Positions 11,965 through 32,000 of a DNA stretch of 32,000 bases are shown piece by piece. Position 1 is the stretch's first letter, and each line of letters starts with the position of its first letter. This stretch comes from Shewanella profunda (lineage in GTDB: Bacteria > Pseudomonadota > Gammaproteobacteria > Enterobacterales > Shewanellaceae). The position numbers and the translations under genes were made by a program. The notes below the pieces were generated by a model that had not been told where the DNA came from, made no database searches, and was given only the letters and a program-made list of their open reading frames with translations. The stretch lies in the NCBI RefSeq assembly GCF_023283765.1, contig NZ_JAKILG010000004.1:79513-111512 (forward strand). Direction: 5' to 3'.

Positions 11965-11971
11965 TGCAGGT

Positions 11972-12457: not shown

Positions 12458-12461
12458 CGCA

Positions 12462-12740: not shown

Positions 12741-12772
12741 CCTCGGTCGGCTGTTACAGGAGAAACAGAGCT

Positions 12773-14679: not shown

Positions 14680-14694
14680 GTGGAGGATGTGAAG

Positions 14695-15807: not shown

Positions 15808-15826
15808 AGTCAGGATCAGAAAATTT

Positions 15827-15876
15827 AAGCCGGAAAAAACTGTTAAGTTACGTGATTTTTTCCGGCTTCTTTTTTA
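15827..15876 (+). terminator. Rho-independent terminator after pduQ
   Basis: aagccggaaaaaa ... ttttttccggctt forms a 13-bp stem, followed by cttttttaa. Confidence 0.8.
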
Positions 15877-16017
15877 ATTTTCAATCCCCCGAACATGTTA
15901 TATAAATCATATCCGTTTCCTGGATACTGGATTACCATTACAGAATAATCCCCTTTAAATCAATCCAACCAAATGATGGTCATTCAATGAAAATGACTCA
16001 GATCAAGAAATTAATAC

Positions 16018-16570: not shown

Positions 16571-16573
16571 TAT

Positions 16574-17458: not shown

Positions 17459-17472
17459 GTCTCCTGTTCACG

Positions 17473-17865: not shown

Positions 17866-17866
17866 T

Positions 17867-18679: not shown

Positions 18680-18928
18680 TTATTTAGTGTTATCGGCATT
18701 GTTTTTTCTAAACGACTTGATCGCCTTTCTTTGCCGGATGCTCTTAATGGACTCGTGTACTCCTAATGCAAAGCATGTTATACCCCACACCGATAGCATC
18801 ATTAGAAGCACAAACTCTGATTCTGGTTTTCCAAGCAGTCTATATGCAGCGTAAGATAACGCTCCTGTCGCGATCCCTATGAGCGGAATTCCAACCAAAT
18901 AAATAGAAAGTTCTGCTTTGTATGTCAT
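18680..18928 (-). CDS. Small membrane protein (82 aa from ATG 18928), stand-alone immunity-like gene
   Basis: Two hydrophobic helices. GGAGAG RBS before MTYKAELSIY. Sits in the rhs orphan array behind a short rhs scar (18987-18999). Confidence 0.5.
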   Translation of the reverse strand: MTYKAELSIYLVGIPLIGIATGALSYAAYRLLGKPESEFVLLMMLSVWGITCFALGVHESIKSIRQRKAIKSFRKNNADNTK

Positions 18929-19030
18929 ATTTACTCTCCGTTCCCACGAGAACCCTCCTTCCGGGTCCATATAGCTTCATGGAGTACCGCTGGCATCGGC
19001 GGGGCCAACGCCAGCATTATCAGGTGCAAC

Positions 19031-19258
19031 TCACTTGTTGCCATTCCCCTTGTCATGAAAACTACCTACAACAACAAGAATTATGCTGGAAATGGTCAAT
19101 GCCACCCCTAAAAACGCCCCTATTTTTACATACAGGATTATTTTTTCTTTTAGTAGAAAGTAATCTACCGCCCCCATAATGAACGCACTTACCAATACAG
19201 CTAATCCTATGTTCATTAACGTTCGCTGCACCCTTTCAATCTTTGTCAGGTTTTGCAT
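19031..19258 (-). CDS. Small membrane protein (75 aa), stand-alone immunity-like gene; intact copy of the gene split at 10838/16018
   Basis: Two hydrophobic helices. Preceded by the rhs scar at 19271-19299. Confidence 0.5.
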   Translation of the reverse strand: MQNLTKIERVQRTLMNIGLAVLVSAFIMGAVDYFLLKEKIILYVKIGAFLGVALTISSIILVVVGSFHDKGNGNK

Positions 19259-19270
19259 AAATACCTCTCA

Positions 19271-19299
19271 AAACCACTTGGCCGCTGGCATCGGTCAGC
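19271..19299 (-). repeat. rhs core scar (29 nt)
   Basis: aaaccacttggccgctggcatcggtcagc differs at one position from the main rhs at 21897-21925. Confidence 0.75.
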
Positions 19300-19325
19300 C
19301 ACAACCGGCACCAGCATCACCCGCT

Positions 19326-19625
19326 TTATGTTCCGGAGAAGAACCTCATCACTTCCGCTGGGTAATGGAATAGGTGCCCCCCTTTATCGAAGAACAGAAA
19401 CCATACAGAGAAAGATATAGCAAAGACTCCTACGCCAACAATCTCAAAAACATTTCTACCAATACGATGAATGTCAGTTCCTTTGTCATACTTTATCTTC
19501 TTATGCTTTATTACCCCTGCGATTCCTACGTAAATAAAATTAACCCCAAGAGGGATAAGAATCACAACAACTCCAGTGAAGTAGGCTGTATAAAGAAAGA
19601 AATCTACCCAGTTATTGATTTCCAA
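19326..19625 (-). CDS. Small membrane protein (99 aa, TTG start), paralogue of 20444..20743
   Basis: (L)EINNWVDFFLYTAYFTGVVVILIP...FSVWFLFFDKGGHLFHYPAEVMRFFSGT aligns end to end with MEINSWFDFIIYTIYFFGVVVIILP...FSVWYLFFAKGGNLFLYPSEVMRFFSGG. The start codon is TTG where the paralogue has ATG. Confidence 0.5.
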   Translation of the reverse strand: MEINNWVDFFLYTAYFTGVVVILIPLGVNFIYVGIAGVIKHKKIKYDKGTDIHRIGRNVFEIVGVGVFAISFSVWFLFFDKGGHLFHYPAEVMRFFSGT

Positions 19626-19690
19626 AAGCTGTACCTCCTTCCATCCCTATTCCTACGTTTAAGCTGGCTTGAAATTTTCCGCATCATTTC

Positions 19691-19936
19691 TTACCGCCGT
19701 TTACTTCGGCAGAACTCGATTAAGGACATAGTTGAACCTATTACCCCAATCACGGCACCTATCGCCAAAAAACCCCAAAACACCATTTCATTTTGCTGGT
19801 TCGTTTGATGCAATCCTAAAATCAATGCCAATTTTTGACCGCCATAGCCCACAACCCACCCTATCAACACAGATCCAAATAAGAACGGGAAGTAAATAGT
19901 TCCCAAAAACCACATCCAACGTTTATAAGTTTTCAT
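19691..19936 (-). CDS. Small membrane protein (81 aa from ATG 19936), stand-alone immunity-like gene
   Basis: Hydrophobic helices. The upstream in-frame extension (..SSQKVWKA) is an rhs core scar at 19944-19970. Confidence 0.5.
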   Translation of the reverse strand: MKTYKRWMWFLGTIYFPFLFGSVLIGWVVGYGGQKLALILGLHQTNQQNEMVFWGFLAIGAVIGVIGSTMSLIEFCRSKRR

Positions 19937-19999
19937 CAAAATCGCCTTCCAAACCTTTTGGCTGCTGGCGTTGAAATGCCCAACGCCAGCAGGGTTCAC

Positions 20000-20266
20000 T
20001 TACTTAAAATGTTCAGGAATCATCTTGATTTGTTCTTCCGCATCCCAATTTTTGGGTTTATCACTAGGCTCTAACCATTCGCATCCACTAGAGAGCCAGC
20101 CGCCTCTTAGAGCTCGTACATTTTCGAGCGTGGTATCGCCATAACCGAACTCCACTCCACAGCATGAACATATTTCGTATGTAGGTGTTTTATCATCTTC
20201 GCCCCAAGGTGGATCTTCGTGGAAAAGACCGCATACTCTACAGTGATGTTTAATTTTACTGGTCAT
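20000..20266 (-). CDS. Small Cys-rich (zinc-ribbon-like) protein, 88 aa from ATG 20266; probable orphan immunity protein
   Basis: MTSKIKHHCRVCGLFHEDPPWGEDDKTPTYEICSCCGVEFGYGD... has two CxxC pairs. GGAG lies 8 nt before the ATG. The ORF-track version (to 20395) fuses it in frame to an rhs scar. Confidence 0.5.
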   Translation of the reverse strand: MTSKIKHHCRVCGLFHEDPPWGEDDKTPTYEICSCCGVEFGYGDTTLENVRALRGGWLSSGCEWLEPSDKPKNWDAEEQIKMIPEHFK

Positions 20267-20317
20267 AGAAATACTCCAATGGTGTTTTGTATTTGTTGGG
20301 CTCACATTTACCTTGGA

Positions 20318-20417
20318 GAACCGCAGGTTGAAGGTTGGCCCCTGGGTGGTGATGCTTGCTTTGCCAAAGGGGCTGTAGCTCACCTTCCAAACCACTTGGC
20401 CGCTGACGTCGGCTGGG
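20318..20417 (-). pseudogene. rhs core remnant (encodes ..[32 protein letters not shown]), truncated on both sides
   Basis: Strong nucleotide similarity to the main rhs at 21826-21925. It breaks off where the core would continue with PGQYYDAETG. Confidence 0.8.
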
Positions 20418-20443
20418 CCAACGCCAGAGCCTGATCCACACTA

Positions 20444-20743
20444 TCAGCCGCCTGAAAAAAATCTCATTACCTCTGACGGATAAAGAAACAGATTTCCACC
20501 TTTGGCAAAAAACAGATACCAAACAGAAAAAACCACAGAAAAAATACCTGCAACGCACACTTCAAATCTATTTCTTGCAGAGAAATACTTGTAGTGCTTT
20601 ATTTCGTATCTCGGGGTTCTCATTTTTATTAGGTTCTTCAATGTTAACCAAAGAAAAATAGCCCCTACAGGTAGGATAATCACCACCACCCCAAAAAAAT
20701 AAATTGTGTATATAATAAAATCGAACCAACTATTGATTTCCAT
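20444..20743 (-). CDS. Small membrane protein (99 aa), stand-alone immunity-like gene
   Basis: Paralogue of 19326..19625, with an ATG start and three hydrophobic segments. Confidence 0.55.
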   Translation of the reverse strand: MEINSWFDFIIYTIYFFGVVVIILPVGAIFLWLTLKNLIKMRTPRYEIKHYKYFSARNRFEVCVAGIFSVVFSVWYLFFAKGGNLFLYPSEVMRFFSGG

Positions 20744-20855
20744 AAACAGTCCCCAGAGCTACATCGGCCAATAACTCGCCATCGAGGCCGTAAACATAGA
20801 GCACATCTACGCCACCAGCAGGCTTAACCGCTGGTGGCAATATTTCAAGCCGTTC

Positions 20856-21206
20856 TCAATACTGCCTTTTCTTAAAGTAGCCAAGCCTTCTCAGACGAGA
20901 TAAGAAATTCTTTTTGAAATACAGCCCACCCGGCAATGCTGCTAAAACAAAAAGCACCATAAAATAAACTGCATAAACCACATTAGAATTAAAAGCTTCA
21001 CGCCACCCATTGATAAACACGGGGGCAATAAATAACGGTGCAACCAATACACACGCAAACAACACGTAAACAATACCCCCCCCCACATATTTAGCAAAGG
21101 CACCGGACCTACCCAGGAAAAATAGAGTTTTCCCATAAACAACGAACCCTACTAATAAAAGACCTGATACAACAACAAAGTACATGGCCGTAACAATCCA
21201 CATCAT
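20856..21206 (-). CDS. Putative RhsI immunity protein of the main Rhs toxin; polytopic membrane protein (116 aa from ATG 21206)
   Basis: ATGATG begins 1 nt after the rhs stop (TAA-T-ATG-ATG at 21210-21201). Four hydrophobic helices. Confidence 0.65.
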   Translation of the reverse strand: MMWIVTAMYFVVVSGLLLVGFVVYGKTLFFLGRSGAFAKYVGGGIVYVLFACVLVAPLFIAPVFINGWREAFNSNVVYAVYFMVLFVLAALPGGLYFKKNFLSRLRRLGYFKKRQY

Positions 21207-21207
21207 A

Positions 21208-24200
21208 TTAAAACCCCTTACCAAATAATTCACCCGAGCCAACGGTAACACCTTCAACCACAGAGCCAACAGTATTTCCCGGAATTTTATTTATCCCTGA
21301 TGAACTTAATGGACGTCCAATGATTGTAAAGCGATAAGGGCTAATATAACGCCCTATTGTACTTCCTAGAGGTCCTCCTAAAGCCCCTCCCAGCGCAGCT
21401 CCAGCCACAGCGGAAAAATCATAATTACAGTAATCAGTAACATCCTTTCCTGAAACATATAGACCAGCACTTTGACCAAGCAGGCTGGCTATACCCGCAC
21501 CAGCCGCCGCTCCGGCAGAGTGTGCTCCAAATATATTAACGAAACCAACTAATGCACCAGTGCCAGCTCCAGCTAATGCGCCTTGCCACCCACCTGAAAT
21601 GTAGCCACCTATTCCCCCAGAGATCAGTCCATAGGCCGCACCCGCGAGCCCATATTCCCCAGTAGGATCAATTAGCCTTAAAGGGTTTGCGCGAACATAC
21701 CCATAGGTATCCACCCCATCGAACAGGCCAAGGCGGTCTGATTGTAAGTAACGGCCAAGTGCTGGGTCATAGTAGCGATGCCAGTTGTAATGGAGCCCGG
21801 TCTCCGCGTCGTAATACTGTCCTGGGAACCGCAAGTTGAAGGTCGGCCCCTGGGTGGTGATGCTGGCTTTACCAAAGGGGCTGTAGCTCGCCTTCCAAAC
21901 CACTTGGCCGCTTGCATCGGTCAGCGCCTTCGGGGTGCCCAGGTGATCGACGTGGACTTGGTAGGTCTGTCCTGACTGAACAAAGCCCAAGGGTGTCCCA
22001 TCGAGCCAGACATACTCCGCCAGCACGTCTCCAGTGGCCGCGTCCAGCTCCTCGATGAGGTTTCCTGCCAGGTCGTAAACCAGCAGCCGGGTATGCCCGT
22101 TTAGGGTCTTGGTTACACGCTGATCCAGGTGGTTGTATGTGTAGCTTACAGTCACTCCCGCGACCGTTGCGGCCACCAGCCGGTTCTGGCTGTCATAGGT
22201 GAAGGTATCCGCCCCCTGCTTCGTCAGGTTGCCATTGGCGTCATAGCTTCTGGAGGTTTGCCCGGCCTTCACCAGCCAGTTGTTCATGTAGTTGATGGTG
22301 TAGCTTTGGCTCAGGCCATCGGTCGTGATCGAGGTCCTGTTGCCGGTGGCGTCATAGCCATAGCCCAAAACGCCATAGAGCCCCTCAGCAGAGGTGATGC
22401 GGCCAACCGCGTCATAACCGAGTGACTGATTGACTGATGAGCTGAGATTGTCGTCTATGGCTGAAATCAACGAGTCTGGCGTGTACCGATAGACCAGCGA
22501 ATGCACCCTAGCAGCGTCGATGCCGGTGACACGGTAATCGAGATCCAGAGTGCGGCTTTCTGAAATGCCGTTCCCTCTGACCATACTGGTGACGGGGCCA
22601 AAGGGCGCTCGCTCAATCTGGCTTGCCAGGTTTGTTGTGGTGCCTGCTTGTGTCGTTGTCACCTCGATGACGTCACCGGCTGAGTCACGGGTGTAGGAGA
22701 CCTCACGGCCACTGGGATACGTGATCTTCGTGACGAGGCCTGCACCATCGTATTGGTACTGGGTAGTCAGGCTCTGCCCGTGGGTTTCCCAGGTTTCGTA
22801 AGCCAGCCATCCTTCGGGGGTGTAGCCAAATCTCCGGACACCGTTGCCATCATCGACTGAGGTCAAGCGGCCTATGCCGTATGGTGAGGTTGCTTCGTCA
22901 TACCCGTACAGAATTGGCGATTCGCCAGCGACATCGGTGGAGGTTTCGATGATCCGGTTCAGCGCGTCATAGCTGTAGCTTGTGGTTTGCCCCTTGGCCG
23001 TCTTGCGCGTTGCCACGTTACCGGCTTCGTCATAGGTAATGTCGGTGGTGCCGGTGTCCGGGCTCCGGACTTGAGTCACTTCTCCAAAGCCGTTGTAGCT
23101 GTAGTAGGTCAGGCGCGAACGAGGGTCTGAGACGCGGTAAACATCGCCGGTATCTTTGTAGAGTACCTGCGTGACCTTCCCAAGGGGGTCGGTCGTTTGC
23201 GTCCGGTGGTGGAAGCCGTCGTACTTGTAGGAGTGCGCGTTACCAGATGGACTGGTCTCCTGTATCAGGTTTGCCACCACATCGTAGGAAAACGATGACT
23301 GATTGCTATAGGCGTCGGAGACACTGGAGAGCCAGCCTATTTCGTTGAAGATCCGGTGCTCTATCCAACGGGTCTGGCCCAGCGCATCGAGCAGACGCTC
23401 TTCTACTGGGTTCCCGAGGTCATTGAGTTCAAGCTCGCGCCGGTTGCCCTGTCCATCTGTTTCCGCTACCAGCCGGTGGGCAGCGTCGTATTCATAGCTG
23501 ACAGTTGCACCATTTGGCTTGGTTAGCGAACTCAGAAGCCCCACAGCATCATAGTTGTAGGTCGTGGTGCCTTCTGGACCAGTGGAGCTGACAAGCCTTC
23601 CTCTGGCGTCATAGGTGAGGGTCTGAGTTACACCGTTGACCCCCTGAATGGTCCCGGCGCGACCGTTCGCGTCGTAGTCGCCAAACTGCGTCACCTGCCC
23701 CAGTGCGTTCGTTGTCCGGATCAGGTTGCCCTGGTCATCGTAGTCAAATGTCGTCACATCGCTGACGTCGGTGCGCGGACCATCAATCGAGGCCAACAGG
23801 CTGGGCTTTCCTGTACCAGCAGGGGCATAGGTGTAGGTCCATGTCCGGGAAGCGCCCGAGCTGCGATCAGTGACCTTGCGGCTTATCACCCGGAGATGAG
23901 TGTCGTAGGTGAGCTCAGTGATCCTTGTTGGTTCTGTGATTTTTGCCGGGAGCGACTTGGAAGGAAGCCAGTCGGTCGTAACCTTGCCCCCGTCCTGGTC
24001 TATCTGGGTGGTTTCCAATCCCCGGTCGTTATGGGTGAACGTGCGCTTCTGCCCAGCGCGGTCAGTAATGCTGGAGACGAGGCCTTTGCTGTCGTAGACG
24101 TAGGTTTCCTTGCCGCCCACAAAGCCAGTACACGGCGCACCCTCAACCACATCAGGCTTGAGCATCCCATTGTGGCGACTGTAGGTGTATCGCTGAACGT

Positions 24201-25416
24201 GGCCGAGGGCATTGGTGACAGAGACGCTTCCGTCAGCGTTGTAGCTTACCTGAGTCTTCTCTGCGCCTCCGGCGTGTTCGCTTAGAACCGCCCTCCCCTG
24301 AGCATCATATCCCCATGTGGCGAAACGGTTGCCGTTCTCGTCCACCAGCCCAGAGAGCAAACCAGGTGCGTTCGGGTCATCGTAGAGATAGCTGCGAGTC
24401 GTATTGTCCTGGTAGATCACTTCCGCCAGCTTGCCAGCGCTGTTGTACTGGTACTGAATACTGCCTCCAGCAGGATCGGTGACACTGACCATGCGGCCAT
24501 CCTGATACTGGAACTGGAGGGTGCGGCCAAAGCCGTCAGTGATCGAGGAGAGCTCTCCGTTCAGATAGCTCAGGGTGATGTGATTGCCGTTGGGCTTCTC
24601 GATGCCGGTCAGTCGTCCGGTTTCATCATAGGCCTCAACTACCCCGTCAGATTGTGTGTAGCGCCAGCCGGTAGCCTCTTTGGCTAAGGCGTCATCGGTT
24701 TTCCATGTTGGCACCCATCCAGAGGATGTTTCGTAGAAGGCGAGCTCCTGCCCTTCTGGTCGGTGCAGGACAACCATGTTCTCACCGTACTTCGAGGCGT
24801 TGACCTCGACGCTCCGCGAGTAGGTATGCCGCCAGCCGCCGATCTCTTCATCCGGAAGATGGCTGTTGTAGTACCTGGTGAAAGTGAGCGGGTCTGAACC
24901 GCCGCTTTGATAATCCAGCTCAGCCTGGAACTTGTTGCCGGTGCCGAGATGGATAGGGTTCCCCACACACATGGCTGTTGATGGTAAACCGAGGTCACGG
25001 TCAAGGAATGGCGTATTGTCCATCTCGCCCGGCAAGATGTAGGTTGACCGCCAGTATGCTCCACCAGTACAGGTTTCAGGGTCATAGCTTGCGGTCCCGC
25101 CAACGTACTTGAAGCAGATCCTGGAGGTGTAGCGGCCATCACCATATCCCTCGACCGGATACAGCTTTTCGCTGACGAACTCTCCGTACCCCTTCTCCTC
25201 TTCAATGCGGTAGCTCTTCATGAAGGAATGCGCGTCCATGATGGTGTTGAAGCGCATTGCATCTACTTCGGTGCTCACGGCCACAACCCGCCATTGTGCA
25301 AAAGCGATGCACGGCAAGGTTGCGAGCACCACCACGGCCAATGACCGCAGATTTCGCATCAGTGAAAGGGTAGGTCTCGATCTCATAAACAGCTCCAGTT
25401 GTTGCACTGGAGCCAT
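21208..25416 (-). CDS. Rhs-family (YD-repeat) polymorphic toxin, 1402 aa, with an N-terminal signal peptide and a 148-aa glycine-zipper C-terminal domain
   Basis: Many YD repeats (YDETGRL, YDAQGRA, YDANGRA, YDARGRL, YDAAHRL, YDALNRI, YDAVGRI, YDSQNRL). N-terminal plug region VGNPIHLGTGNKFQAELDY. Core end [57 protein letters not shown] at 21655 and above, then the CT at 21211-21654. The likely true start is MRSRP (25386) or MRNLRS (25359). Confidence 0.95.
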   Translation of the reverse strand: MAPVQQLELFMRSRPTLSLMRNLRSLAVVVLATLPCIAFAQWRVVAVSTEVDAMRFNTIMDAHSFMKSYRIEEEKGYGEFVSEKLYPVEGYGDGRYTSRICFKYVGGTASYDPETCTGGAYWRSTYILPGEMDNTPFLDRDLGLPSTAMCVGNPIHLGTGNKFQAELDYQSGGSDPLTFTRYYNSHLPDEEIGGWRHTYSRSVEVNASKYGENMVVLHRPEGQELAFYETSSGWVPTWKTDDALAKEATGWRYTQSDGVVEAYDETGRLTGIEKPNGNHITLSYLNGELSSITDGFGRTLQFQYQDGRMVSVTDPAGGSIQYQYNSAGKLAEVIYQDNTTRSYLYDDPNAPGLLSGLVDENGNRFATWGYDAQGRAVLSEHAGGAEKTQVSYNADGSVSVTNALGHVQRYTYSRHNGMLKPDVVEGAPCTGFVGGKETYVYDSKGLVSSITDRAGQKRTFTHNDRGLETTQIDQDGGKVTTDWLPSKSLPAKITEPTRITELTYDTHLRVISRKVTDRSSGASRTWTYTYAPAGTGKPSLLASIDGPRTDVSDVTTFDYDDQGNLIRTTNALGQVTQFGDYDANGRAGTIQGVNGVTQTLTYDARGRLVSSTGPEGTTTYNYDAVGLLSSLTKPNGATVSYEYDAAHRLVAETDGQGNRRELELNDLGNPVEERLLDALGQTRWIEHRIFNEIGWLSSVSDAYSNQSSFSYDVVANLIQETSPSGNAHSYKYDGFHHRTQTTDPLGKVTQVLYKDTGDVYRVSDPRSRLTYYSYNGFGEVTQVRSPDTGTTDITYDEAGNVATRKTAKGQTTSYSYDALNRIIETSTDVAGESPILYGYDEATSPYGIGRLTSVDDGNGVRRFGYTPEGWLAYETWETHGQSLTTQYQYDGAGLVTKITYPSGREVSYTRDSAGDVIEVTTTQAGTTTNLASQIERAPFGPVTSMVRGNGISESRTLDLDYRVTGIDAARVHSLVYRYTPDSLISAIDDNLSSSVNQSLGYDAVGRITSAEGLYGVLGYGYDATGNRTSITTDGLSQSYTINYMNNWLVKAGQTSRSYDANGNLTKQGADTFTYDSQNRLVAATVAGVTVSYTYNHLDQRVTKTLNGHTRLLVYDLAGNLIEELDAATGDVLAEYVWLDGTPLGFVQSGQTYQVHVDHLGTPKALTDASGQVVWKASYSPFGKASITTQGPTFNLRFPGQYYDAETGLHYNWHRYYDPALGRYLQSDRLGLFDGVDTYGYVRANPLRLIDPTGEYGLAGAAYGLISGGIGGYISGGWQGALAGAGTGALVGFVNIFGAHSAGAAAGAGIASLLGQSAGLYVSGKDVTDYCNYDFSAVAGAALGGALGGPLGSTIGRYISPYRFTIIGRPLSSSGINKIPGNTVGSVVEGVTVGSGELFGKGF

Positions 25417-25537
25417 TTTCAGGTAGGTGGGTCGTTTTCAGCGACTGTGTTTCTGCCCTTTTAGGGAATGAAGAGCAGCAAAGCTATGTTTGCGCTGATG
25501 GTGCAAAGTATGGTTGCAGGGTTGCAGGGTTGCGTTG

Positions 25538-26221
25538 TTAGACTTCGTTGTTCCGTCGCAGATTCTCAATGTGAGCTCGGTTAGTCCTCAAACCACGTTG
25601 AAGCCTGAGACTCTGGAGCCTCGCAGAGGCCTCTTCGACATCGAGCACCTTCTGTCCACTGGCAATCATGTCGTTAATGTAGTCCGCCGCTTTCCACCCG
25701 GAAGTGAAGAGAGCTGCTGGTTGTTCTTTGCTTGCCCACTCACATTCCCCGAGCATGACAACCAAGGAATGAATGTTTGCCAACCCGACGTTAGGAAGAA
25801 GAGCCTCGATAGCCTTCACATGCTTGTAGTTCTGACGAAACGGATTCTGGAACTTATAGGTGCTCTTGAAGATTTTCTGGGTCCACTGCTTATCCGATTC
25901 CTTGCCATAAATCCGGCCTTTATAGAACTTTGTCTCGACGACAAATATTCCGGTTGGAGCAATGACAATGTGGTCTACCTGCGTTGTATCCCCTTCTGAA
26001 ACCACCAGTGTGACATCATCCAAAACAACGCACTCCTGCCCACATCGGTTGTGCAGTATTTTTGATAACGCCCACTCTCCGAACCGCCCCTTGATGTTTC
26101 GTGAAAACATTCTTAGAAAAGACGCAGCGACCGCCACCGCGAAAAGCAGCCAGATTAAAGGTTGGCTTATCAATGAAGCCAGAACGCCCCCAAAGAGCTG
26201 GGAAATGAAGTTTTCAGGCAT
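25538..26221 (-). CDS. NERD (nuclease-related domain) protein with an N-terminal transmembrane helix (227 aa)
   Basis: KGRFGEWALSKIL...VVLDDVTL......TQVDHIVIAPTGIFVVETKFYKGRIYG....KQWTQ.......FQNPFRQNYKHVKAIEALL matches the NERD pattern (GxxGE ... D-H ... E-x-K ... W ... NP..Q). Hydrophobic segment LIWLLFAVAVAASFL near the N-terminus. GAGGT RBS. Confidence 0.85.
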   Translation of the reverse strand: MPENFISQLFGGVLASLISQPLIWLLFAVAVAASFLRMFSRNIKGRFGEWALSKILHNRCGQECVVLDDVTLVVSEGDTTQVDHIVIAPTGIFVVETKFYKGRIYGKESDKQWTQKIFKSTYKFQNPFRQNYKHVKAIEALLPNVGLANIHSLVVMLGECEWASKEQPAALFTSGWKAADYINDMIASGQKVLDVEEASARLQSLRLQRGLRTNRAHIENLRRNNEV

Positions 26222-26298
26222 CAGTTACCTCTCAAAGTTATTTTGTTCTCATAGAACCAAAATGGCCCTTGTTTAGAGCCATTTTGTTTATACGTATC

Positions 26299-28779
26299 TC
26301 AGTAAATTGGCCTTACCCTGGGATAGGATTCGATCACCCGCATAATTGGCCCCAGAAAGCCCTTGTACTCCGGCATCCTCAGCCTGCCATCCAAAACCAG
26401 TATGCGACGGTTTTTAGGCTGGTTCTCCAAGCGGATCAGGCGTCCAAGGCCTTGTTTGAAGCGGATAACCGTTTCCATGACTTCCATTGCCCCTTGCTTG
26501 CGGGAGCGAGCCAGACGTGCGTGGTAAGACAATGAACGGTTCAGGCCGAAAGGCAGCTTCGGAATGATGAGCGTGGCGATCACATTATCTTTCTCTGCGA
26601 TTTCCTCATCGCTCAGCCCAATATGCTTGCCGTTGATGTCAAGGCCGGTCCATGCGCCGCCCAATGCAAGCCATAACGGCTTTTCACCAGCTTTCAGAGC
26701 ATTCAGGTAGGCAACCTTCTGCGCTTCTGTCGTAACGTTCCCGTCAGCTTTGACTATTGGGTTATTGAGCCCCCCTAACCTGTCGTAAACGCCTCTCACA
26801 TCGGCAAATGATGTCATCAGGACCAGCGTCCCCCCCTCACCCTGGCCGTGAGCTATCACGATTTGCTCAGCAATGTTATCCAGCCAGGCGCTGTGCATTT
26901 TCTCTCGGCTCTCAGTGGTTTCATCGCTCTGCTTTCGTCCTACCGGAACAAAACGTTCAGCTTGTTCGAGGGCCAAAGGAGGCAGACAAATTTCATGAAC
27001 ATTGCTTTTCAGCCACGGCGGAGTGATAGGCGTATAGGTTTTGAGCCGACGTTCGGGGATAAACAAGTTGTTTGCGAAGTAACTGCATGTGAACCCCCCC
27101 ATTTTAGGGAAATACAATGTCGCACTGATACAGATGGCCGCAGAAACCTGCTGCCAAATTGTTCGCATATAAGGCTGGGTATTGATCTCACCAGAGATGA
27201 TTTGCGGATACCGTTTCACTGGGGAGAATGTCAGCCCAAAGTGGTAGTGAGGTGAGTCAGCCTTATCAATCGCATATTGAAGCGTTCTGATCTGGGCCTT
27301 CAAGGAACCAGGTAATTTCCGGTAGTTCTTGGTTGACTTAACGAGGTTGACAATACGGCTTAACGCATGGAAATACTCAACCCCAGGAGTCAGGGATACC
27401 TTACCAGCTTCTTTATCTTGATCATCCGCATTGATGATGATGCTGGCCTCCTTTTTTATGTCCTTCATCTTCCCGGCTGGAATGATCCCCGCGTTACTAT
27501 GGGACTCCAGTTCTTTGATGAAAGACCGGAACGAGAGGTTGTCACTGATCATTCGGGACGCGGTTTCCTCAAGAAGATGCGCTTCATCGACAAAGAGGAA
27601 CTGATACATAGGCAACAAACCAATGTCATTGTTCTGGTACACCTCCTTGGATAGAAGGTCTTCTCTTCTTTGTAGCTCGTCTATGTCTTCTTTCAAGATG
27701 CGCTTGGCCTCATCCGTCGCCTTACCCAGCGCCTCGATTCGAGATGATATATCCCGCTTGGTAGCCTTCAACTCGTCGGTCAAGTCATGCTCGCTCTGTG
27801 CGATCCTGATGCGTCGAGTTTTAGCATCTATGGCAAGCATTGCGTGGGTACAGAGCACGATTTCAGGGTAAACATCTTCTCGCACGAACTGACTTTTATA
27901 GGCCAGATACCCTGGGTCTTCGCTCGATGCGTCCACCCCCAGCACGACCTCAGACGTAGCAGCATTGGGGAAAAGGCTGACCAGCTCATCAAGCAAATAT
28001 GCGGGAGCGGCGTCGATTTCACGCTCTTGAAGCAGGCCGGTTTGCATCCATCGTTCGACAGCATGGAGGACTTCTTGAGGGATCTCGTCATCGGCCAGAT
28101 ACCGGCGCAGTTTGTCCACACTCACGAAGCTGTTTCTTCCCAACACAACCCTAAGCGGAACCATCTCCACACCAGCCGCCACCAGTCGCTCATAGGTCTT
28201 AGCCATCTGCTGGATGTTGCTTATGGTGTTTGTTGCGATAACAGAGCGCTGCCCTTTTGCAGCGGCGATCTGATTAGCACTGGCAAGGATGGTCAGCGTC
28301 TTACCTATCCCTGTTCCACCTTCGACCATGCCGATGCCCCCTTTGGCGAGGGTGTCATTTATCGCATCCGCCAAGATGAGCTGCTCCTTTCTTGGCCTCA
28401 TCGCAAGGGGATTCAGATAGACGTCCATCATGTGCTCACTTTCTTCCGAGGTAAGCTGGTGATTGACGTAGAGCTCCTTTTCGATCCCAGCGCTCAAAAT
28501 ATAAAAAAGCAGTAGCCCCTCAGGCTGTTTATGCTCTCGCATCAGCGTTCTTATTTTGGCGCTGACTTGCTGGGGGAACGTCAGGTTGTAGTGGAATGCG
28601 ACACTCCCCTCATCGCTCTGGGCATCCATCTTCGGCCCGAGTCCCCTCTCTATCGCATCGACGATGATTTTCTTCGCAACATCTGCGACTTTTTTTTGAT
28701 CATCCTTGCTAAGGATGTCTGCTGTGTTGTCAGGCAATAGCGCTTGGGCGAGCTGCTGCGGAATCTTAACCTTCGCCAT
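26299..28779 (-). CDS. dinG: DinG/XPD-type SF2 helicase, interpreted as CasDinG (Csf4) of a type IV-A CRISPR-Cas system (826 aa)
   Basis: Walker A GGTGIGKT at aa 154-161, DEAH box FVDEAHLLEE, C-terminal motif VI FKQGLGRLIR. No four-Cys Fe-S cluster between motifs I and II. An N-terminal domain of about 125 aa precedes the helicase core. Divergent from four RAMP/Csf-like genes. Confidence 0.8.
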   Translation of the reverse strand: MAKVKIPQQLAQALLPDNTADILSKDDQKKVADVAKKIIVDAIERGLGPKMDAQSDEGSVAFHYNLTFPQQVSAKIRTLMREHKQPEGLLLFYILSAGIEKELYVNHQLTSEESEHMMDVYLNPLAMRPRKEQLILADAINDTLAKGGIGMVEGGTGIGKTLTILASANQIAAAKGQRSVIATNTISNIQQMAKTYERLVAAGVEMVPLRVVLGRNSFVSVDKLRRYLADDEIPQEVLHAVERWMQTGLLQEREIDAAPAYLLDELVSLFPNAATSEVVLGVDASSEDPGYLAYKSQFVREDVYPEIVLCTHAMLAIDAKTRRIRIAQSEHDLTDELKATKRDISSRIEALGKATDEAKRILKEDIDELQRREDLLSKEVYQNNDIGLLPMYQFLFVDEAHLLEETASRMISDNLSFRSFIKELESHSNAGIIPAGKMKDIKKEASIIINADDQDKEAGKVSLTPGVEYFHALSRIVNLVKSTKNYRKLPGSLKAQIRTLQYAIDKADSPHYHFGLTFSPVKRYPQIISGEINTQPYMRTIWQQVSAAICISATLYFPKMGGFTCSYFANNLFIPERRLKTYTPITPPWLKSNVHEICLPPLALEQAERFVPVGRKQSDETTESREKMHSAWLDNIAEQIVIAHGQGEGGTLVLMTSFADVRGVYDRLGGLNNPIVKADGNVTTEAQKVAYLNALKAGEKPLWLALGGAWTGLDINGKHIGLSDEEIAEKDNVIATLIIPKLPFGLNRSLSYHARLARSRKQGAMEVMETVIRFKQGLGRLIRLENQPKNRRILVLDGRLRMPEYKGFLGPIMRVIESYPRVRPIY

Positions 28780-28796
28780 AATCTTTCCTCTACGAG

Positions 28797-28825
28797 TTGA
28801 CTTGGTAAAATCTTACTGATACGCT
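28797..28825 (+). promoter_or_regulatory. Candidate sigma-70 promoter for the csf operon (TTGACT-17 nt-TACGCT)
   Basis: Seen in the 78-bp divergent spacer between the dinG and csf5 starts, about 30 nt upstream of the GTG start and its AAGAGGAG RBS. Confidence 0.3.
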
Positions 28826-28857
28826 CTTTATAAGTCAAGAAAAGAGGAGCACCAGCG

Positions 28858-29559
28858 GTGAACCAATACATGCTCAAACTATGCCTCCCAAGAGGCATAA
28901 GCATTGGCCCCAACGAGCTGCGGGAGGCCACTGCGAAAGTCCTGAACGGTCAGGAGAACTGCCATCGTTTTTTTCACTATGACGAAAACGGCAAACCCTT
29001 AAATGAAAAGCCTGCCTACAGGTTTGTTGGTGGTAAAGGGTTCGTCGGCTTTGTCAGTGAACGGAGCGAGGAAGACATCAAGGACCTTATGTATCCGGTG
29101 CTCCAGGCCATACAAACACCCAAGTTGTTTTCAATGCTCAACGGCTTAATGCCGAAGGTGCAAATTCTGCAATTCGAGAAGAAGGCTTTTGTTACTCAGG
29201 AGCCTAACGTTTATCTCGTGTCGCGTTGTATCGACAAAAAGGAGCATCGGAAGGCGCTCGGTGAGGAAGGTCGTCTGACCGTGCTATTCAAAAGCATGTT
29301 GGCACAAGCGGTTAAGGAAGGAGTTCTTACAGCTCTTCCGGATGACCAGGACCTTCAACTTCAATTCGCTTCTGTACGTGATCTTGGGCTGGAAACCCAA
29401 TTCCAAAACCAGAACAAGAAGTGGATGCACATGATGCACGCTCAGTTTATTGCCAATATTGATCTCCAAGGTATTTGGCAAATGGGCGGCATGACATCTC
29501 GCGGCCACGGCCTCATTTTCAAGCAAAACAAAAAGGGGGTATTTCAATCATGCCTCTGA
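28858..29559 (+). CDS. csf5: Cas6-like RAMP protein, Csf5-type (233 aa, GTG start)
   Basis: The position (first gene, before csf1), the size, and the C-terminal glycine-rich loop GGMTSRGHGLIF are typical of Cas6-family RAMPs. AAGAGGAG RBS 8 nt before the GTG. Confidence 0.55.
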   Translation: MNQYMLKLCLPRGISIGPNELREATAKVLNGQENCHRFFHYDENGKPLNEKPAYRFVGGKGFVGFVSERSEEDIKDLMYPVLQAIQTPKLFSMLNGLMPKVQILQFEKKAFVTQEPNVYLVSRCIDKKEHRKALGEEGRLTVLFKSMLAQAVKEGVLTALPDDQDLQLQFASVRDLGLETQFQNQNKKWMHMMHAQFIANIDLQGIWQMGGMTSRGHGLIFKQNKKGVFQSCL

Positions 29560-30296
29560 CAGTTTCGCAAATGATTGCCAAGTATCACCCCATCAATATG
29601 GTCAGCAGCACTCATGCAGACCATGACTCACACTGCGGTATCTGCGGAGGTGCCATCAAAGCTGGTGATGCCTGTGACGAGATGGTGTTAACCAAAACCT
29701 TTACCAATCAAAATGATTTGGCTGACATGTCAGCACCATACCGTTGTGTTGGCTGCGCCTCTATCATGGCCGATGGCCGCTTCCAAATGCAGCTATCCAG
29801 TGTTGTTATCACACCGCAAGCCATTTACCCGTTTGCCAAAAAGGTTGATCGCGGCTTTTTCCTAATCAACCCGCCAGAGCCTCCTTTTGCGATGGTGATA
29901 GGAGTTAGCAAGCAGCAGCACGTTGTATGGCGCTCGCCCATAAACCTAAACAACAGACGGTTCCAGATCCAGCTTGGTGATGATCGCGTCGCTATACGCC
30001 ATTCGCGCTTAATGGACGCAGTGAACGCGGTCAAGTCCATACACACTTGTGATATTTCGGAAATCATCGGCAAAAAAAACAAAGTCAAGGAGAACGCCTC
30101 CCCCTTTACTTTTAGCGATATGAAGTCTGCTCGCTCAAGACAAAGTGAGTGGGCATGGTGGGCCTTGTTGCTACGCCAAGAAGGGAAGCATGACGCAGAG
30201 TTCAAAGTGCTGGACGAACTGACTGCTGATGAGGCATGGGCGCTCGATTTTTGCCTCGCTGACGATATAAAAAAACCTGAACCAATTTTGCTATAA
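29550..30296 (+). CDS. csf1: Csf1-like (Cas8-like) small 'large subunit' with an N-terminal zinc finger (248 aa from ATG 29550)
   Basis: HCGICGG...(about 35 aa)...RCVGCAS forms a treble-clef-type CxxC/CxxC pair near the N-terminus, as in Csf1. The ATG overlaps the csf5 stop (ATGCCTCTGA) behind AAGGGGG. The ORF-track start at 29475 is an in-frame upstream extension. Confidence 0.6.
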   Translation: MPLTVSQMIAKYHPINMVSSTHADHDSHCGICGGAIKAGDACDEMVLTKTFTNQNDLADMSAPYRCVGCASIMADGRFQMQLSSVVITPQAIYPFAKKVDRGFFLINPPEPPFAMVIGVSKQQHVVWRSPINLNNRRFQIQLGDDRVAIRHSRLMDAVNAVKSIHTCDISEIIGKKNKVKENASPFTFSDMKSARSRQSEWAWWALLLRQEGKHDAEFKVLDELTADEAWALDFCLADDIKKPEPILL

Positions 30297-30314
30297 CACC
30301 TGGAGACACATCGA

Positions 30315-31403
30315 ATGAACAGCATCAATATCGTTTTGACTACTACCTCTCCCTGGTATGTCGCTTATCCTGAAAATGAATCGAAAGAATTAAAAGGGGT
30401 ATCTCTGACGCAGAAGAAGTCTGTGTTTGGTCAGCAAGTTCCTTGTTATCTCGGTAACGGCCTCCGAGGCCAGTTCCGTCGTAGCATCGGTCAGTTGATC
30501 ATCGACTCCTTGCGTGGACGAGGAGAGACTATCCCTGCAAACGTGTTTATTGGCTTGCAAACGGGTTCCGCATCGGCTCAGCCGGATAAATCCATGAATA
30601 GCGTCGAAGAGCTGACTCGTTCCGCACAGCATGTTTACATGGGCTTGTTCGGTGGTGGGGCTCGGACATTACGCAGCCGCTATAGCGTATCGGACATCAC
30701 CCCTATTCTCCATTGCACTGTCGAGACAAATGAAATTGTCGCCCCCAAAGGGATGGTGGATGAGGTTCTGGACAGCCTCCACTACACCGTTAAAGAAGAT
30801 GGGAAAGAAACCCAGAAGATCATAGAAGGCTGGCAGTTGATCGAAAAACGCTGGTTCACTAAGGTTGACGACTTTGAACGCGGTAATGTCACCTTTGAAT
30901 TGCTTGATGCCATTGAAAACGGCACCGAAGCTGTATCTGAGTACCTCTCTGGCAATGCAGAAAACAGCAAGCAACGTAAAGCGGCAAAAAGCTCGGAAGG
31001 GAATGAAGTCGTTAAAAAAACATCTGTCGCCAACATGCTCGGTTTTGAGACCATCAAGACGGGCGTTAAGATGCACTTCCGAGTTGATTTCGATTCCACT
31101 GTTACGAAAGCACAGTTTGGTGCCCTTCTGTTGGCCCTTGAAGCCTGGGTGAACCGCAACTATGTCGGTGGCTGGGGCCGAACCAATTTTGGACGCTTCA
31201 AGATTGACGCCATCCGCATCGACTCTGACCGCTTTGAGATCTTTGAAAGCTATACCAGTGAAGCTCTCTACACTGAGGGGAAATTCACGCTTGCCAATAT
31301 GGCTGATGACATCAAATCCCATGTGGCGGCCTGCAAATCTGAGATCGAAGCAGTTGAGCGCGATGAGATCGTCAGCTACTTCACCAACCTGGTAAAGGCA
31401 TAA
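30315..31403 (+). CDS. csf2: Cas7-family RAMP backbone protein, Csf2-type (362 aa)
   Basis: The N-terminal strand INIVLTTTSPWYV, followed by GNGLRGQFRRSIG (the G..LRG..R motif of Cas7/Csm3-like RAMPs), and the C-terminal G-rich loop YVGGWGRTNFGRF. Confidence 0.65.
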   Translation: MNSINIVLTTTSPWYVAYPENESKELKGVSLTQKKSVFGQQVPCYLGNGLRGQFRRSIGQLIIDSLRGRGETIPANVFIGLQTGSASAQPDKSMNSVEELTRSAQHVYMGLFGGGARTLRSRYSVSDITPILHCTVETNEIVAPKGMVDEVLDSLHYTVKEDGKETQKIIEGWQLIEKRWFTKVDDFERGNVTFELLDAIENGTEAVSEYLSGNAENSKQRKAAKSSEGNEVVKKTSVANMLGFETIKTGVKMHFRVDFDSTVTKAQFGALLLALEAWVNRNYVGGWGRTNFGRFKIDAIRIDSDRFEIFESYTSEALYTEGKFTLANMADDIKSHVAACKSEIEAVERDEIVSYFTNLVKA

Positions 31404-31409
31404 GGTGAC

Positions 31410-32000
31410 ATGATGGAGCCGTTAAAAGTCACCTTTAAACTCGGGGGCATGATGGTCATGCCCTCTAACCCGATACACCTGGACGCTTTGATTGCTTATG
31501 CCGTCACACAAGAGCGTTTGCCAGAACTGGAGTTTGATCCTCAACCCATATCCTCATTGGCCGAGGAACTTCCCATCGAAAAGTACGAGCAGGATGGTGA
31601 CTGGTGCTGGAAGGCATCCGCCATCACCCCAAACAACGTGTTTGAACGCAGCTCTCGTCACTACACGCAGCGCATTGACGAAGACGCCTATGCAGAAGCC
31701 GCTAAAGGCGGCTTCATACAGTCAGGACGCAAACGCGGCGAATTGGAGAGAATGTCTCACGCGATCAAGATCGACACGTTACGAGGTAGCCAGCGCAATC
31801 TTCTCGGCTTTTACCGTACTGCGAGAGTCGATGAGTTAGTAGGCTATATTGTCGGGGATAAAGACCAGATCAGTTATTACCTCAAAGAGTCTGGGCTCAT
31901 CACTCACATTGGCCCTCGTCGTCGTCAAGGTCATGGGAAAATAGTGGATGTCATCATCGAAAGTGACCAAATGGCCCTTGAAAAATGGATGCTGCGGGTC
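31410..32000 (+). CDS. csf3: Cas5-family RAMP protein, Csf3-type; 197 codons, open at the window end
   Basis: Absent from the ORF track (no stop in the window). My translation is MMEPLKVTFKLGGMMVMPSNPIHLDALIAYAVTQ...THIGPRRRQGHGKIVDVIIESDQMALEKWMLRV. The N-terminal beta strand plus P.HLDAL(I/L)A motif and the late G-rich loop fit Csf3/Cas5. It starts 6 nt after the csf2 stop. Confidence 0.55.
   Translation, partial: MMEPLKVTFKLGGMMVMPSNPIHLDALIAYAVTQERLPELEFDPQPISSLAEELPIEKYEQDGDWCWKASAITPNNVFERSSRHYTQRIDEDAYAEAAKGGFIQSGRKRGELERMSHAIKIDTLRGSQRNLLGFYRTARVDELVGYIVGDKDQISYYLKESGLITHIGPRRRQGHGKIVDVIIESDQMALEKWMLRV

What the first reader, a model, noticed from the sequence alone, without database searches (positions are those of the whole stretch)
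26299..32000. Type IV-A-like CRISPR-Cas effector module (dinG divergent from csf5-csf1-csf2-csf3) with no array or adaptation genes in view
- **Sequence:** an 826-aa DEAH helicase (Walker A GGTGIGKT, VDEAH, QGLGRLIR, no Fe-S cysteines) faces four tightly coupled plus-strand genes.
- **The four genes:** a RAMP with a C-terminal G-rich loop (Cas6/Csf5-like), a 248-aa protein with an N-terminal CxxC...CxxC finger (Csf1-like), a 362-aa RAMP with GNGLRGQFRR (Cas7/Csf2-like) and a RAMP with P.HLDALIA and GPRRRQGHG (Cas5/Csf3-like).
- **Established knowledge:** this gene set defines type IV-A systems. They lack a nuclease and cas1/cas2, are usually borne on plasmids or ICEs, and act on competing mobile elements.
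- **Unusual points:** dinG is divergent and is followed by a NERD gene. The flank upstream of dinG contains no repeat array. The locus is embedded next to an Rhs toxin island rather than obvious plasmid functions.
- **Limit:** the array, if any, must lie beyond position 32000.
Basis: partly seen in the sequence, partly recalled or inferred. Interest (0 to 1): 0.78.

Follow-up and report, generated by a model that had tools for sequence, protein, structure and literature searches.

The report
Plasmid-borne type IV-A1 CRISPR-Cas module
This is an intact, already-annotated type IV-A1 CRISPR-Cas gene set (DinG helicase plus Csf5, Csf1, Csf2, Csf3) on an IncC-like conjugative plasmid of Shewanella; it is an ordinary member of a known family, and the arrays of its close relatives mostly target genomic islands that hijack IncC plasmids.

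Summary

- **Genes:** all five ORFs exist at the stated coordinates. Each passes NCBI's equivalog cut-off for Csf4/CasDinG, Csf5, Csf1, Csf2 or Csf3. Their best PADLOC models are subtype IV-A1.
- **Known status:** three of the four window Cas proteins looked up (DinG, Csf1, Csf2) are exact RefSeq entries from Shewanella profunda already named "type IV CRISPR-associated"; the identical Csf5 is filed the same way under Gammaproteobacteria. The NERD neighbour is also an exact S. profunda entry.
- **Function:** dN/dS against a 91%-identical Vibrio copy is 0.04-0.10, so the genes are under purifying selection.
- **Array:** none is in the window. In all 10 loci fetched that encode the identical Csf5, a 12-73-repeat array (28-nt repeat, 33-nt spacer) starts 103 bp after csf3. 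That predicts window position about 32211.
- **"Unusual" points are not unusual:** divergent dinG is documented. The Rhs gene is IncC plasmid backbone. NERD is a dispensable neighbour.
- **Targets in relatives:** of 208 pooled spacers, at least 12 match an SGI1-like island, 6 match an island at yicC, and 2 match replication genes (a phage-plasmid, a plasmid). Only 2 match the IncC backbone, and poorly. A C immediately 5' of the protospacer occurs in 18 of 22 cases.

Verdict: already known; low to moderate interest.

The parts
26299..28779 (-). csf4 / CasDinG: 826-aa type IV-A DEAH-box helicase, transcribed divergently from the csf operon
   Evidence: NCBIfam TIGR03117 cas_csf4 at 850.3 bits (cut-off 400), full length 1-821. 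PADLOC Csf4_1_IVA1 at 1020 bits. PDB CasDinG chains 8rfj_K, 8e2w_A and 7xex_A at E 1e-46 to 1e-38. Motifs and lack of an Fe-S Cys cluster. dN/dS 0.07 against pVPS91.
28780..28857 (.). 78-bp divergent intergenic region between dinG and csf5; presumed site of both promoters
   Evidence: One sigma-70-like match faces dinG (TTGACT-17-TAAGAT, 28838..28810, minus strand). This is a consensus match only, and the region as a whole has no more promoter-like matches than its shuffles. Sequence.
28858..29559 (+). csf5: Cas6-family crRNA endoribonuclease of the Csf5 type (233 aa, GTG start)
   Evidence: NCBIfam NF045575 cas6_csf5 at 229.6 bits (cut-off 150). PADLOC Cas6_2_IVA1 at 5e-81. PDB 6h9h Csf5 at 3.7e-8. 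The exact protein occurs on 65 contigs and is named Csf5.
29550..30296 (+). csf1: Cas8-like large subunit with an N-terminal CxxC...CxxC zinc finger (248 aa); its start overlaps the csf5 stop
   Evidence: NCBIfam TIGR03114 cas8u_csf1 at 253 bits (cut-off 140). PDB Csf1 chains 9n3y_A and 7xfz_A at 4e-16. CGIC at residue 29 and CVGC at residue 66.
30315..31403 (+). csf2: Cas7 backbone subunit (362 aa)
   Evidence: NCBIfam TIGR03115 cas7_csf2 at 372.5 bits (cut-off 130). PDB Csf2 chains 8rc3_A and 7xfz_C at 1e-16. dN/dS 0.10.
31410..32000 (+). csf3: Cas5 subunit, first 197 of about 232 codons; truncated by the window end
   Evidence: NCBIfam TIGR03116 cas5_csf3 at 236.7 bits (cut-off 140), model positions 1-191 of 223. 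PDB Csf3 chain 8rc3_F at 3e-9. Full length is 231-232 aa in relatives.
26259..32000 (.). Extent of the conserved, transferable module inside the window. The left boundary is 40 bp beyond the dinG stop. The right side continues past the window into the remaining ~108 nt of csf3, a 103-bp leader and the array.
   Evidence: Window 26259-32000 aligns at 98.9-99.4% with nine of the identical-Csf5 loci L018-L027 (95.4% with L026) and with L002, and at 91% with pVPS91. Flanks differ between these.
25538..26221 (-). NERD-domain gene: a neighbour, not a conserved component of the system
   Evidence: Pfam NERD at 2.3e-28. Present in most IncC-type relatives but absent from pVPS91 and Alcanivorax and from L019.

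Best explanation
[quoted passage not shown] It sits in a variable slot of an IncC-like conjugative plasmid of Shewanella profunda, between the backbone rhs gene and the backbone 241-aa ORF.

**Mechanism** (shown experimentally for homologous IV-A1 systems, inferred here):
1. The array just past the window is transcribed.
2. Csf5 cuts each repeat at the base of its conserved 6-bp hairpin.
3. Csf5, several Csf2 subunits, Csf3 and the zinc-finger subunit Csf1 assemble on the crRNA.
4. The complex reads a short PAM and forms an R-loop on double-stranded DNA.
5. It hands the displaced strand to CasDinG.
6. No nuclease is encoded, so the outcome is transcriptional silencing and blocked propagation of the target, not cleavage.
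7. New spacers must come from a host Cas1-Cas2 acting in trans, or from recombination with other arrays.

**Likely targets** (inferred from relatives; this plasmid's own spacers were not seen): other mobile elements that interact with the plasmid. Foremost are SGI1-family and yicC-integrated islands that hijack IncC plasmids. Replication genes of other plasmids and phage-plasmids are also hit.
For: **Identity.** Five equivalog-level profile hits, IV-A1 PADLOC models and PDB homologues for all five proteins.

**Integrity and selection.** There are no stops or frameshifts, and dN/dS is 0.04-0.10 against pVPS91 and 0.02-0.05 against Alcanivorax.

**No adaptation or nuclease genes.** None is in the window, and none is annotated on the complete 178.8-kb relative pN330-2.

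**Plasmid context.**
- Window 6966-10693 is 98.5% identical and window 21682-25258 is 93% identical to the IncC backbone.
- 1376 plasmid records share parts of the flank.
- In a standard IncC plasmid, rhs and the 241-aa ORF are 240 bp apart.

**Array.**
- It starts 103 bp after csf3 in all 10 loci with the identical Csf5.
- The repeat hairpin is kept in 96% of cells across 84 repeat variants.

**Targets.**
- At least 12 spacers hit an SGI1-like contig carrying UvrD-like, mpsA-like, traH, traG and traN genes.
- Six spacers hit an island with an integrase at the 3' end of yicC.
- One perfect hit lies in repA of phage-plasmid VP882, and one 31/33 hit lies in a plasmid replication-initiation gene (Vibrio alginolyticus; 30/32 in Pseudomonas syringae-group plasmids).
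- Position -1 is C in 18 of 22 protospacers.

**Literature.**
- Type IV-A components and the requirement for DinG: PMC8175902.
- R-loop formation and DinG recruitment: PMC11519345.
- IncC CRISPR spacers matching SGI1: bioRxiv 10.64898/2026.05.05.723028.
- yicC, trmE and dusA islands mobilised by IncC: PMC8409611.
Against: - The window ends inside csf3. The array of this particular plasmid, and hence its targets, were not seen.
- The source contig could not be retrieved.
- About 89% of the pooled spacers have no match in the collections searched.
- The two spacers that match the ordinary IncC backbone have non-consensus PAMs (G and A at -1) and a mismatch at position 4 or 1. Rival-IncC targeting is therefore weakly supported.
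- The yicC island was not shown to be IncC-mobilisable.
- No expression or activity data exist for this lineage. The solved IV-A1 complexes are only distantly related (PDB E-values 1e-9 to 1e-16 for the Csf subunits) and use a different Cas6.
Confidence: 0.88

Rival explanations
1. The locus is a degenerate or array-less remnant. The cas genes are present, but there is no cognate array on this replicon and no CRISPR function.
For: No array lies within the 32-kb window. Partial decay does occur in this lineage: pEc8791 lost dinG through most of csf3 to an IS1 and kept only the array, and split Csf1 fragments are on record.
Against: All five ORFs are intact and under strong purifying selection. 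All 10 loci fetched that encode the identical Csf5 have the array 103 bp after csf3, which is 211 bp beyond the window end.
Confidence: 0.04
2. The system works mainly as a crRNA-guided gene regulator of the plasmid or host (self-targeting CRISPRi, as described for one Pseudomonas oleovorans crRNA), not as interference against other elements.
For: Type IV-A1 represses transcription without cutting, and a natural self-targeting crRNA is documented in P. oleovorans (PMC11551745 abstract). Two spacers resemble IncC backbone genes, traG and a PAPS-reductase gene.
Against: pN330-2's own traG copy differs from the spacer at several positions, and the local BLAST of all its spacers found no PAPS-reductase protospacer on the plasmid itself. 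No spacer of pN330-2 matches its own plasmid well. Most identified targets are foreign islands and replicons with a consistent PAM.
Confidence: 0.06
3. It is primarily an anti-phage defence carried as plasmid cargo.
For: The module sits among defence-like genes (NERD, Rhs toxins; an Abi gene in pVPS91). One spacer matches Vibrio phage VP882 perfectly.
Against: That one hit is in the repA of a plasmid-like prophage. The other four phage-collection hits are short unannotated Salmonella and E. coli fragments. Matches to islands and plasmids outnumber phage matches by about 20 to 1.
Confidence: 0.05

Closest known systems
Type IV-A1 CRISPR-Cas of Pseudomonas aeruginosa and P. oleovorans (solved complexes 7xfz-7xg4, 9n3y, 8rc3, 8rfj)
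   Same: Same five-protein set: a CasDinG without Fe-S cysteines, a zinc-finger Csf1, Csf2, Csf3 and a Cas6. No cas1, cas2 or nuclease is encoded. It is carried on a mobile element, and the PAM lies 5' of the protospacer. The mechanism is presumed to be the same R-loop formation followed by DinG recruitment.
   Different: Only distant sequence similarity (phmmer E 1e-9 to 1e-16 for the Csf subunits). CasDinG here is 826 aa against 626-748 aa for the deposited chains. The Cas6 is of the Csf5 type. The literature says IV-A1/2 loci often carry Cas6f-like enzymes instead, but the Cas6 of the solved Pseudomonas complexes was not compared here. dinG is divergent.
Type IV-A system of Aromatoleum aromaticum (Csf5 structure 6h9h/6h9i)
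   Same: Its Csf5-type endoribonuclease is the only PDB match of the window's Cas6. It forms a Csf1-Csf2-Csf3-Csf5 crRNP (PMC8175902).
   Different: Low identity (E 3.7e-8). The host replicon differs. Gene order and crRNA handle length of that system were not checked here.
Type IV-A3 systems on Klebsiella IncHI1B/IncFIB plasmids
   Same: A plasmid-borne, DinG-dependent, nuclease-free system. It is used in conflicts between mobile elements and acquires spacers in trans from host type I systems (abstract of 10.1101/2023.06.23.546257).
   Different: IV-A3 has a Cas6e-type nuclease and a different Cas8-like protein. The window's proteins score best on IV-A1 models. The plasmid family differs (MOBH IncC/pAQU).
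CRISPR region of V. cholerae IncC plasmid pCNRVC180106 (bioRxiv 10.64898/2026.05.05.723028)
   Same: An array on an IncC plasmid with 27 spacers, six matching SGI1 genes. The relatives examined here show the same biology.
   Different: That record was not compared directly. The preprint's main text has no match to 'csf' or 'type IV' used for the CRISPR system, so it apparently does not type the cas genes.

Membership tests
Type IV-A CRISPR-Cas (definition in PMC8175902: csf1, csf2, csf3, cas6/csf5, dinG, CRISPR array) | csf1 (Cas8-like large subunit) | tested here: met
   TIGR03114 at 253 bits against a cut-off of 140. Zinc-finger CxxC pairs present.
Type IV-A CRISPR-Cas | csf2 (Cas7) | tested here: met
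   TIGR03115 at 372.5 bits against a cut-off of 130. PDB Csf2 hits.
Type IV-A CRISPR-Cas | csf3 (Cas5) | tested here: met
   TIGR03116 at 236.7 bits against a cut-off of 140, on the 197 residues available. The C-terminal ~35 residues lie outside the window.
Type IV-A CRISPR-Cas | Cas6-family endoribonuclease (csf5) | tested here: met
   NF045575 at 229.6 bits against a cut-off of 150. PDB 6h9h.
Type IV-A CRISPR-Cas | Subtype signature gene dinG/csf4 of the CasDinG kind, not housekeeping DinG | tested here: met
   TIGR03117 at 850 bits (cut-off 400). DinG, YoaA and Rad3 models score at most 95 bits with cut-offs of at least 247. No Fe-S Cys cluster.
Type IV-A CRISPR-Cas | Adjacent CRISPR array | not testable with these tools
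   The window ends inside csf3, and the source contig is not retrievable. In all 10 loci with the identical Csf5 the array starts 103 bp after csf3, and it also follows csf3 in pVPS91, pEc8791 and Alcanivorax.
Type IV-A CRISPR-Cas | No cas1/cas2 adaptation module and no effector nuclease in the locus | tested here: met
   No Cas family appears among the other window ORFs of at least ~100 aa that were scanned. Nothing is annotated on the complete relative pN330-2.
Variant IV-A1 (versus IV-A2 / IV-A3) | Csf1 present and proteins closest to IV-A1 profiles | tested here: met
   The best PADLOC models are Csf4_1_IVA1 (1020 bits) and Cas6_2_IVA1 (270 bits), and Csf1 is present. No formal phylogeny was made.
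Type IV-B | cysH-like gene and cas11, with no Cas6, DinG or array | tested here: not met
   DinG and Csf5 are present, and there is no cas11 or cysH-like gene in the operon.
IncC (IncA/C) or related MOBH conjugative plasmid as carrier | Backbone synteny (int, 3'-5' exonuclease, rhs ... toprim) and IncC replicon/MOBH relaxase | tested here: inconclusive
   Backbone segments in the window are 93-98.5% identical to IncC plasmids. Relatives are typed IncC / MOBH / MPF_F. The replicon and relaxase of the window's own 195.9-kb contig lie outside the window.

The most novel reading that the evidence does not exclude
In this IncC/pAQU plasmid lineage the type IV-A1 system may be mainly an anti-hyperparasite device. 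Under this reading, a conjugative plasmid uses nuclease-free CRISPR interference to silence the SGI1-family and yicC-integrated islands that hijack its transfer machinery and destabilise it. Its arrays would be built largely by exchange and concatenation of spacer blocks between plasmids. That would fit the 9-40 repeat variants per array, the shuffled shared blocks, and the internal copies of the terminal unit. Whether the window's own plasmid carries such spacers is unknown.
Probability: 0.45. Interest if true: 0.65.

Novelty: already known. Interest (0 to 1): 0.3.

Why it matters
The locus itself adds nothing new. It is a correctly recognisable type IV-A1 system whose exact proteins are already named in RefSeq.

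Its context is of some practical interest. IncC plasmids are major carriers of multidrug resistance, and SGI1-type islands parasitise them. A plasmid-borne CRISPR aimed at those islands would be a concrete, testable layer in that three-way conflict among host, plasmid and island. It could influence which resistance elements can coexist in a cell. One 2026 preprint has noted SGI1-matching spacers on one such plasmid. The pattern seen here across 13 arrays suggests it is general for the lineage.

Tried and rejected
- **Retrieving sequence past 32000.** An exact look-up of Csf2 gave only a 6.2-kb read-assembly contig that breaks before the array. An exact look-up of DinG found nothing on record. 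The single genome-contig scan returned only Alcanivorax nanhaiticus.
- **E. coli complete genomes.** They hold no copy of the module.
- **Rfam.** No match to the window (25000-32000) at gathering threshold, nor to the relatives' repeats at E up to 0.01.
- **Pfam copy held here.** Its models missed Csf5, Csf1, Csf2 and Csf3 (0 hits). NCBIfam and PADLOC were needed.
- **First PAM attempt.** Seven protospacers gave no consensus. A consensus (C at -1) appeared only with 22 protospacers.
- **Proteus protospacer.** I considered that the Proteus mirabilis protospacer lay in SGI1. It lies next to yicC beside HipA-like and Doc-like genes, judged from their N-terminal sequences only, so the element is unidentified.
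- **NERD as a component.** Considered and rejected, because it is absent in pVPS91, Alcanivorax and L019.
- **Promoter scan.** It gave no more sites than shuffles, so the divergent promoter is only presumed.
- **Structure prediction.** Not run, because sequence-level PDB matches already answered the question.
Full report
**1. Observation**

- an 826-aa ORF on the minus strand (26299..28779);
- four plus-strand ORFs: 28858..29559 (233 aa, GTG start), 29550..30296 (248 aa from the ATG), 30315..31403 (362 aa), and 31410 to the window end (197 codons).

The junctions are tight. csf5 and csf1 overlap by 10 nt. There are 18 nt between csf1 and csf2, and 6 nt between csf2 and csf3.

All quoted motifs are at the expected places. 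DinG has a single cysteine between Walker A and the DEAH box, so it has no Fe-S cluster. A NERD-domain gene follows dinG. No repeat array exists anywhere in the 32 kb.

**2. Identity**

The Pfam copy held here recognised only generic helicase domains and NERD. The NCBIfam equivalog models are unambiguous:

| Protein | Bits | Cut-off |
|---|---|---|
| Csf4/CasDinG | 850 | 400 |
| Csf5 | 230 | 150 |
| Csf1 | 253 | 140 |
| Csf2 | 372 | 130 |
| Csf3 (fragment) | 237 | 140 |

Housekeeping DinG and YoaA models reach only 57-95 bits against cut-offs of about 600-790. PADLOC's best models are the IV-A1 variants.

Every protein also finds solved type IV-A proteins by sequence:
- CasDinG chains 8rfj, 8e2w and 7xex;
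- Csf1, Csf2 and Csf3 of the P. aeruginosa and P. oleovorans complexes;
- Csf5 of 6h9h.

Similarity to those characterised systems is distant. This is therefore a separate lineage within IV-A1 that uses a Csf5-type Cas6.

**3. Source and status**

Three of the four window Cas proteins looked up (DinG, Csf1, Csf2), and the NERD protein, are exact matches to Shewanella profunda RefSeq entries on a 195,871-bp contig. They are already named as type IV CRISPR-associated proteins. The identical Csf5 is filed under Gammaproteobacteria with the same longest contig.

Relatives at 90% identity or more occur in Vibrio, Shewanella, Citrobacter, E. coli, Salmonella, Klebsiella and Providencia, on contigs of 130-196 kb.

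The module (window 26259-32000) compares with known plasmids as follows:
- 99.3% identical to Citrobacter freundii pN330-2, which is typed IncC, MOBH, MPF_F and conjugative;
- 91.4% identical to Vibrio parahaemolyticus pVPS91, a pAQU-type plasmid.

**4. Context**

The window's left flank is IncC backbone. The integrase region (6966-10693) is 98.5% identical to pMB4926_1, and rhs (21682-25258) is 93% identical. In total, 1376 plasmid records share parts of it.

In a standard IncC plasmid the rhs gene and the 241-aa backbone ORF are only 240 bp apart. Here that slot holds NERD, dinG, csf5-csf1-csf2-csf3 and, in relatives, the array. The "Rhs island" is therefore itself the plasmid context.

In pVPS91 the same module lies on the other side of rhs, next to an Abi gene. 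No transposase accompanies it. How it moves is not known.

NERD is missing in pVPS91 and Alcanivorax and in L019. Divergent dinG is noted in the literature.

**5. Function of the genes**

The five genes show dN/dS of 0.04-0.10 against pVPS91 and 0.02-0.05 against the Alcanivorax copy, with no stops.

No Cas1, Cas2, Cas3 or other nuclease is encoded in the window. None is annotated on the complete pN330-2.

**6. The array**

It cannot be seen in the window, and the source contig was not retrievable.

All 10 loci fetched that encode the identical Csf5 carry an array starting exactly 103 bp after the csf3 stop, with 12 to 73 repeats. Nine of them are 98.9-99.4% identical to the window module, and one is 95.4%. 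pVPS91, pEc8791 and Alcanivorax also have arrays there. Scaled to the window, csf3 should end near 32108 and the array should begin near 32211.

Array features:
- Repeats are 28 nt and spacers are 33 nt.
- The conserved frame is GTC.GCCCCG......CGGGGGTTAAAG.
- A 6-bp stem is kept in 96% of cells across 84 distinct repeat variants, with C-G, U-G and U-A at the closing pair.
- The hairpin followed by a short 3' segment, the degenerate distal repeat and the 5' PAM all fit transcription in the direction of the csf genes.

**7. Targets in relatives**

I pooled 208 distinct spacers from 13 arrays.

- **SGI1-like island:** at least 12 spacers match a Salmonella contig whose gene order is that of the SGI1 backbone: UvrD-like helicase, tyrosine-recombinase-like mpsA candidate, traH, traG, and traN at 1006 bits.
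- **yicC island:** six spacers match a small region of an E. coli island with a split integrase gene at the 3' end of yicC. The region is a DUF927 gene and its upstream sequence. One spacer matches DNA next to yicC in Proteus.
- **Replication genes:** one spacer matches repA of the plasmid-like Vibrio phage VP882 perfectly. One matches a plasmid replication-initiation gene, 31/33 in a Vibrio alginolyticus plasmid and 30/32 in Pseudomonas syringae-group plasmids.
- **IncC backbone:** only two spacers match the ordinary IncC backbone, in traG and a PAPS-reductase gene. Both have a seed-region mismatch and a non-consensus PAM. pN330-2's own traG copy is more diverged, and no PAPS-reductase protospacer was found on that plasmid.

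Across 22 protospacers the base immediately 5' is C in 18 cases. The expectation from equal base frequencies is about 5.5. This is in line with the 5'-TTC PAM reported for P. aeruginosa IV-A1.

Published work supports the link to IncC. SGI1 and the trmE, dusA and yicC islands are mobilised by IncC plasmids and interfere with them. A 2026 preprint reports six SGI1-matching spacers on one V. cholerae IncC plasmid.

About 89% of the spacers remain unmatched in the collections available.

**8. Mechanism**

The following steps are established for homologous IV-A1 systems and inferred here:
1. Csf5 processes the crRNA.
2. A Csf1-Csf2-Csf3-Csf5 complex assembles on it.
3. Csf1 and Csf3 recognise the PAM.
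4. An R-loop forms.
5. CasDinG is recruited to the non-target strand.
6. Interference and repression follow without a nuclease.

Gene content, selection and array structure are shown directly for this lineage. Activity is not shown.

**9. Verdict**

Its "unusual" features are ordinary for this plasmid lineage. The locus is an already-annotated member of a known family.

The more interesting material lies outside the window:
- the anti-island spacer content of the relatives' arrays;
- their unusually heterogeneous repeats;
- their mosaic structure.

Noticed in passing
L001 25913-30453 (pN330-2); also L018-L027 from 13354, L004 17975-19291, L005 8531-10569, L003 11866-12920: Repeats within a single array are unusually heterogeneous: 9-40 distinct 28-nt variants per array, and 84 variants among 135 repeats in four arrays. 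Variation is concentrated in the loop and the closing base pair, while the stem and the 3' TTAAAG stay fixed. Runs of neighbouring repeats share a variant.
   Followed up: partly
L001 26156-26244, 28903-28991, 29755-29843, 30365-30453: In the 75-repeat array of pN330-2, the terminal unit occurs four times. The unit is spacer GAACTGCCCAATTGCGGAAAGTCATGCAGCTTT plus the degenerate TTCTGCCCCGTATGA.CGGGGGTT.AA. repeat. The array looks like a concatenation of four arrays. Across 13 arrays, 97 of 208 spacers are shared in shuffled blocks, which suggests recombination between arrays.
   Followed up: partly
L005 7286-10569 (E. coli IncC plasmid pEc8791): An IS1 has removed dinG, csf5, csf1, csf2 and the 5' part of csf3. 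This leaves a 444-bp csf3 remnant and an orphan array of 34 repeats.
   Followed up: partly
window 26222-26298 compared with L018-L027 6645-7441: Most relatives have a 176-aa ORF of unknown function (no Pfam hit on record) between NERD and dinG. The window lacks it: only 77 bp separate the NERD start from the dinG stop. L019 lacks both NERD and this ORF.
   Followed up: no
L004 (pVPS91) 10625-26718: The same dinG-csf-array module sits in a different backbone position. An Abi-family gene lies on the dinG side, and the rhs gene with its cassettes lies beyond the array. The module has therefore moved between sites, yet no transposase or recombinase is attached to it.
   Followed up: no
L012 29614-29646 and 1333-1365 (IncC plasmid pPG010208): Two spacers match the common IncC backbone, in traG (about 900 plasmids) and in a PAPS-reductase gene. 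Both have a mismatch at spacer position 4 or 1 and lack the C at PAM position -1. They may be escaped or tolerated targets.
   Followed up: partly
window 11329-15807: A small metabolic cluster is inserted between IncC backbone genes and the Rhs cassettes. It encodes phosphate propanoyltransferase (PTAC), an HbpS-like protein, an aldehyde dehydrogenase and an Fe-alcohol dehydrogenase, a gene set reminiscent of pdu/eut clusters. It is not present in the IncC plasmids compared.
   Followed up: no
window 16223-21269: Downstream of the full-length 1402-aa Rhs gene (21208-25416) there is a series of orphan Rhs C-terminal toxin fragments (16574-17458, 17867-18679) and small ORFs that may encode immunity proteins. 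The C-terminal regions differ from those in pN330-2 and other IncC plasmids.
   Followed up: no
window 997-6558: This stretch encodes a serine resolvase, a patatin-like phospholipase with DUF6363, a tandem universal-stress protein and a SulP/STAS transporter. The segment is shared at about 92-93% with a Vibrio rumoiensis plasmid and with large Enterobacterales plasmids.
   Followed up: no
L029 8990-10254 and 12416-14798 (E. coli STEC639 record CP061233.1): An island at the 3' end of yicC carries a frameshifted integrase, AbiE, AlpA, a DUF927 gene and restriction-type cargo. At least six different spacers from several plasmids hit it, all within about 1.5 kb around the DUF927 gene. The island type was not identified.
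   Followed up: partly
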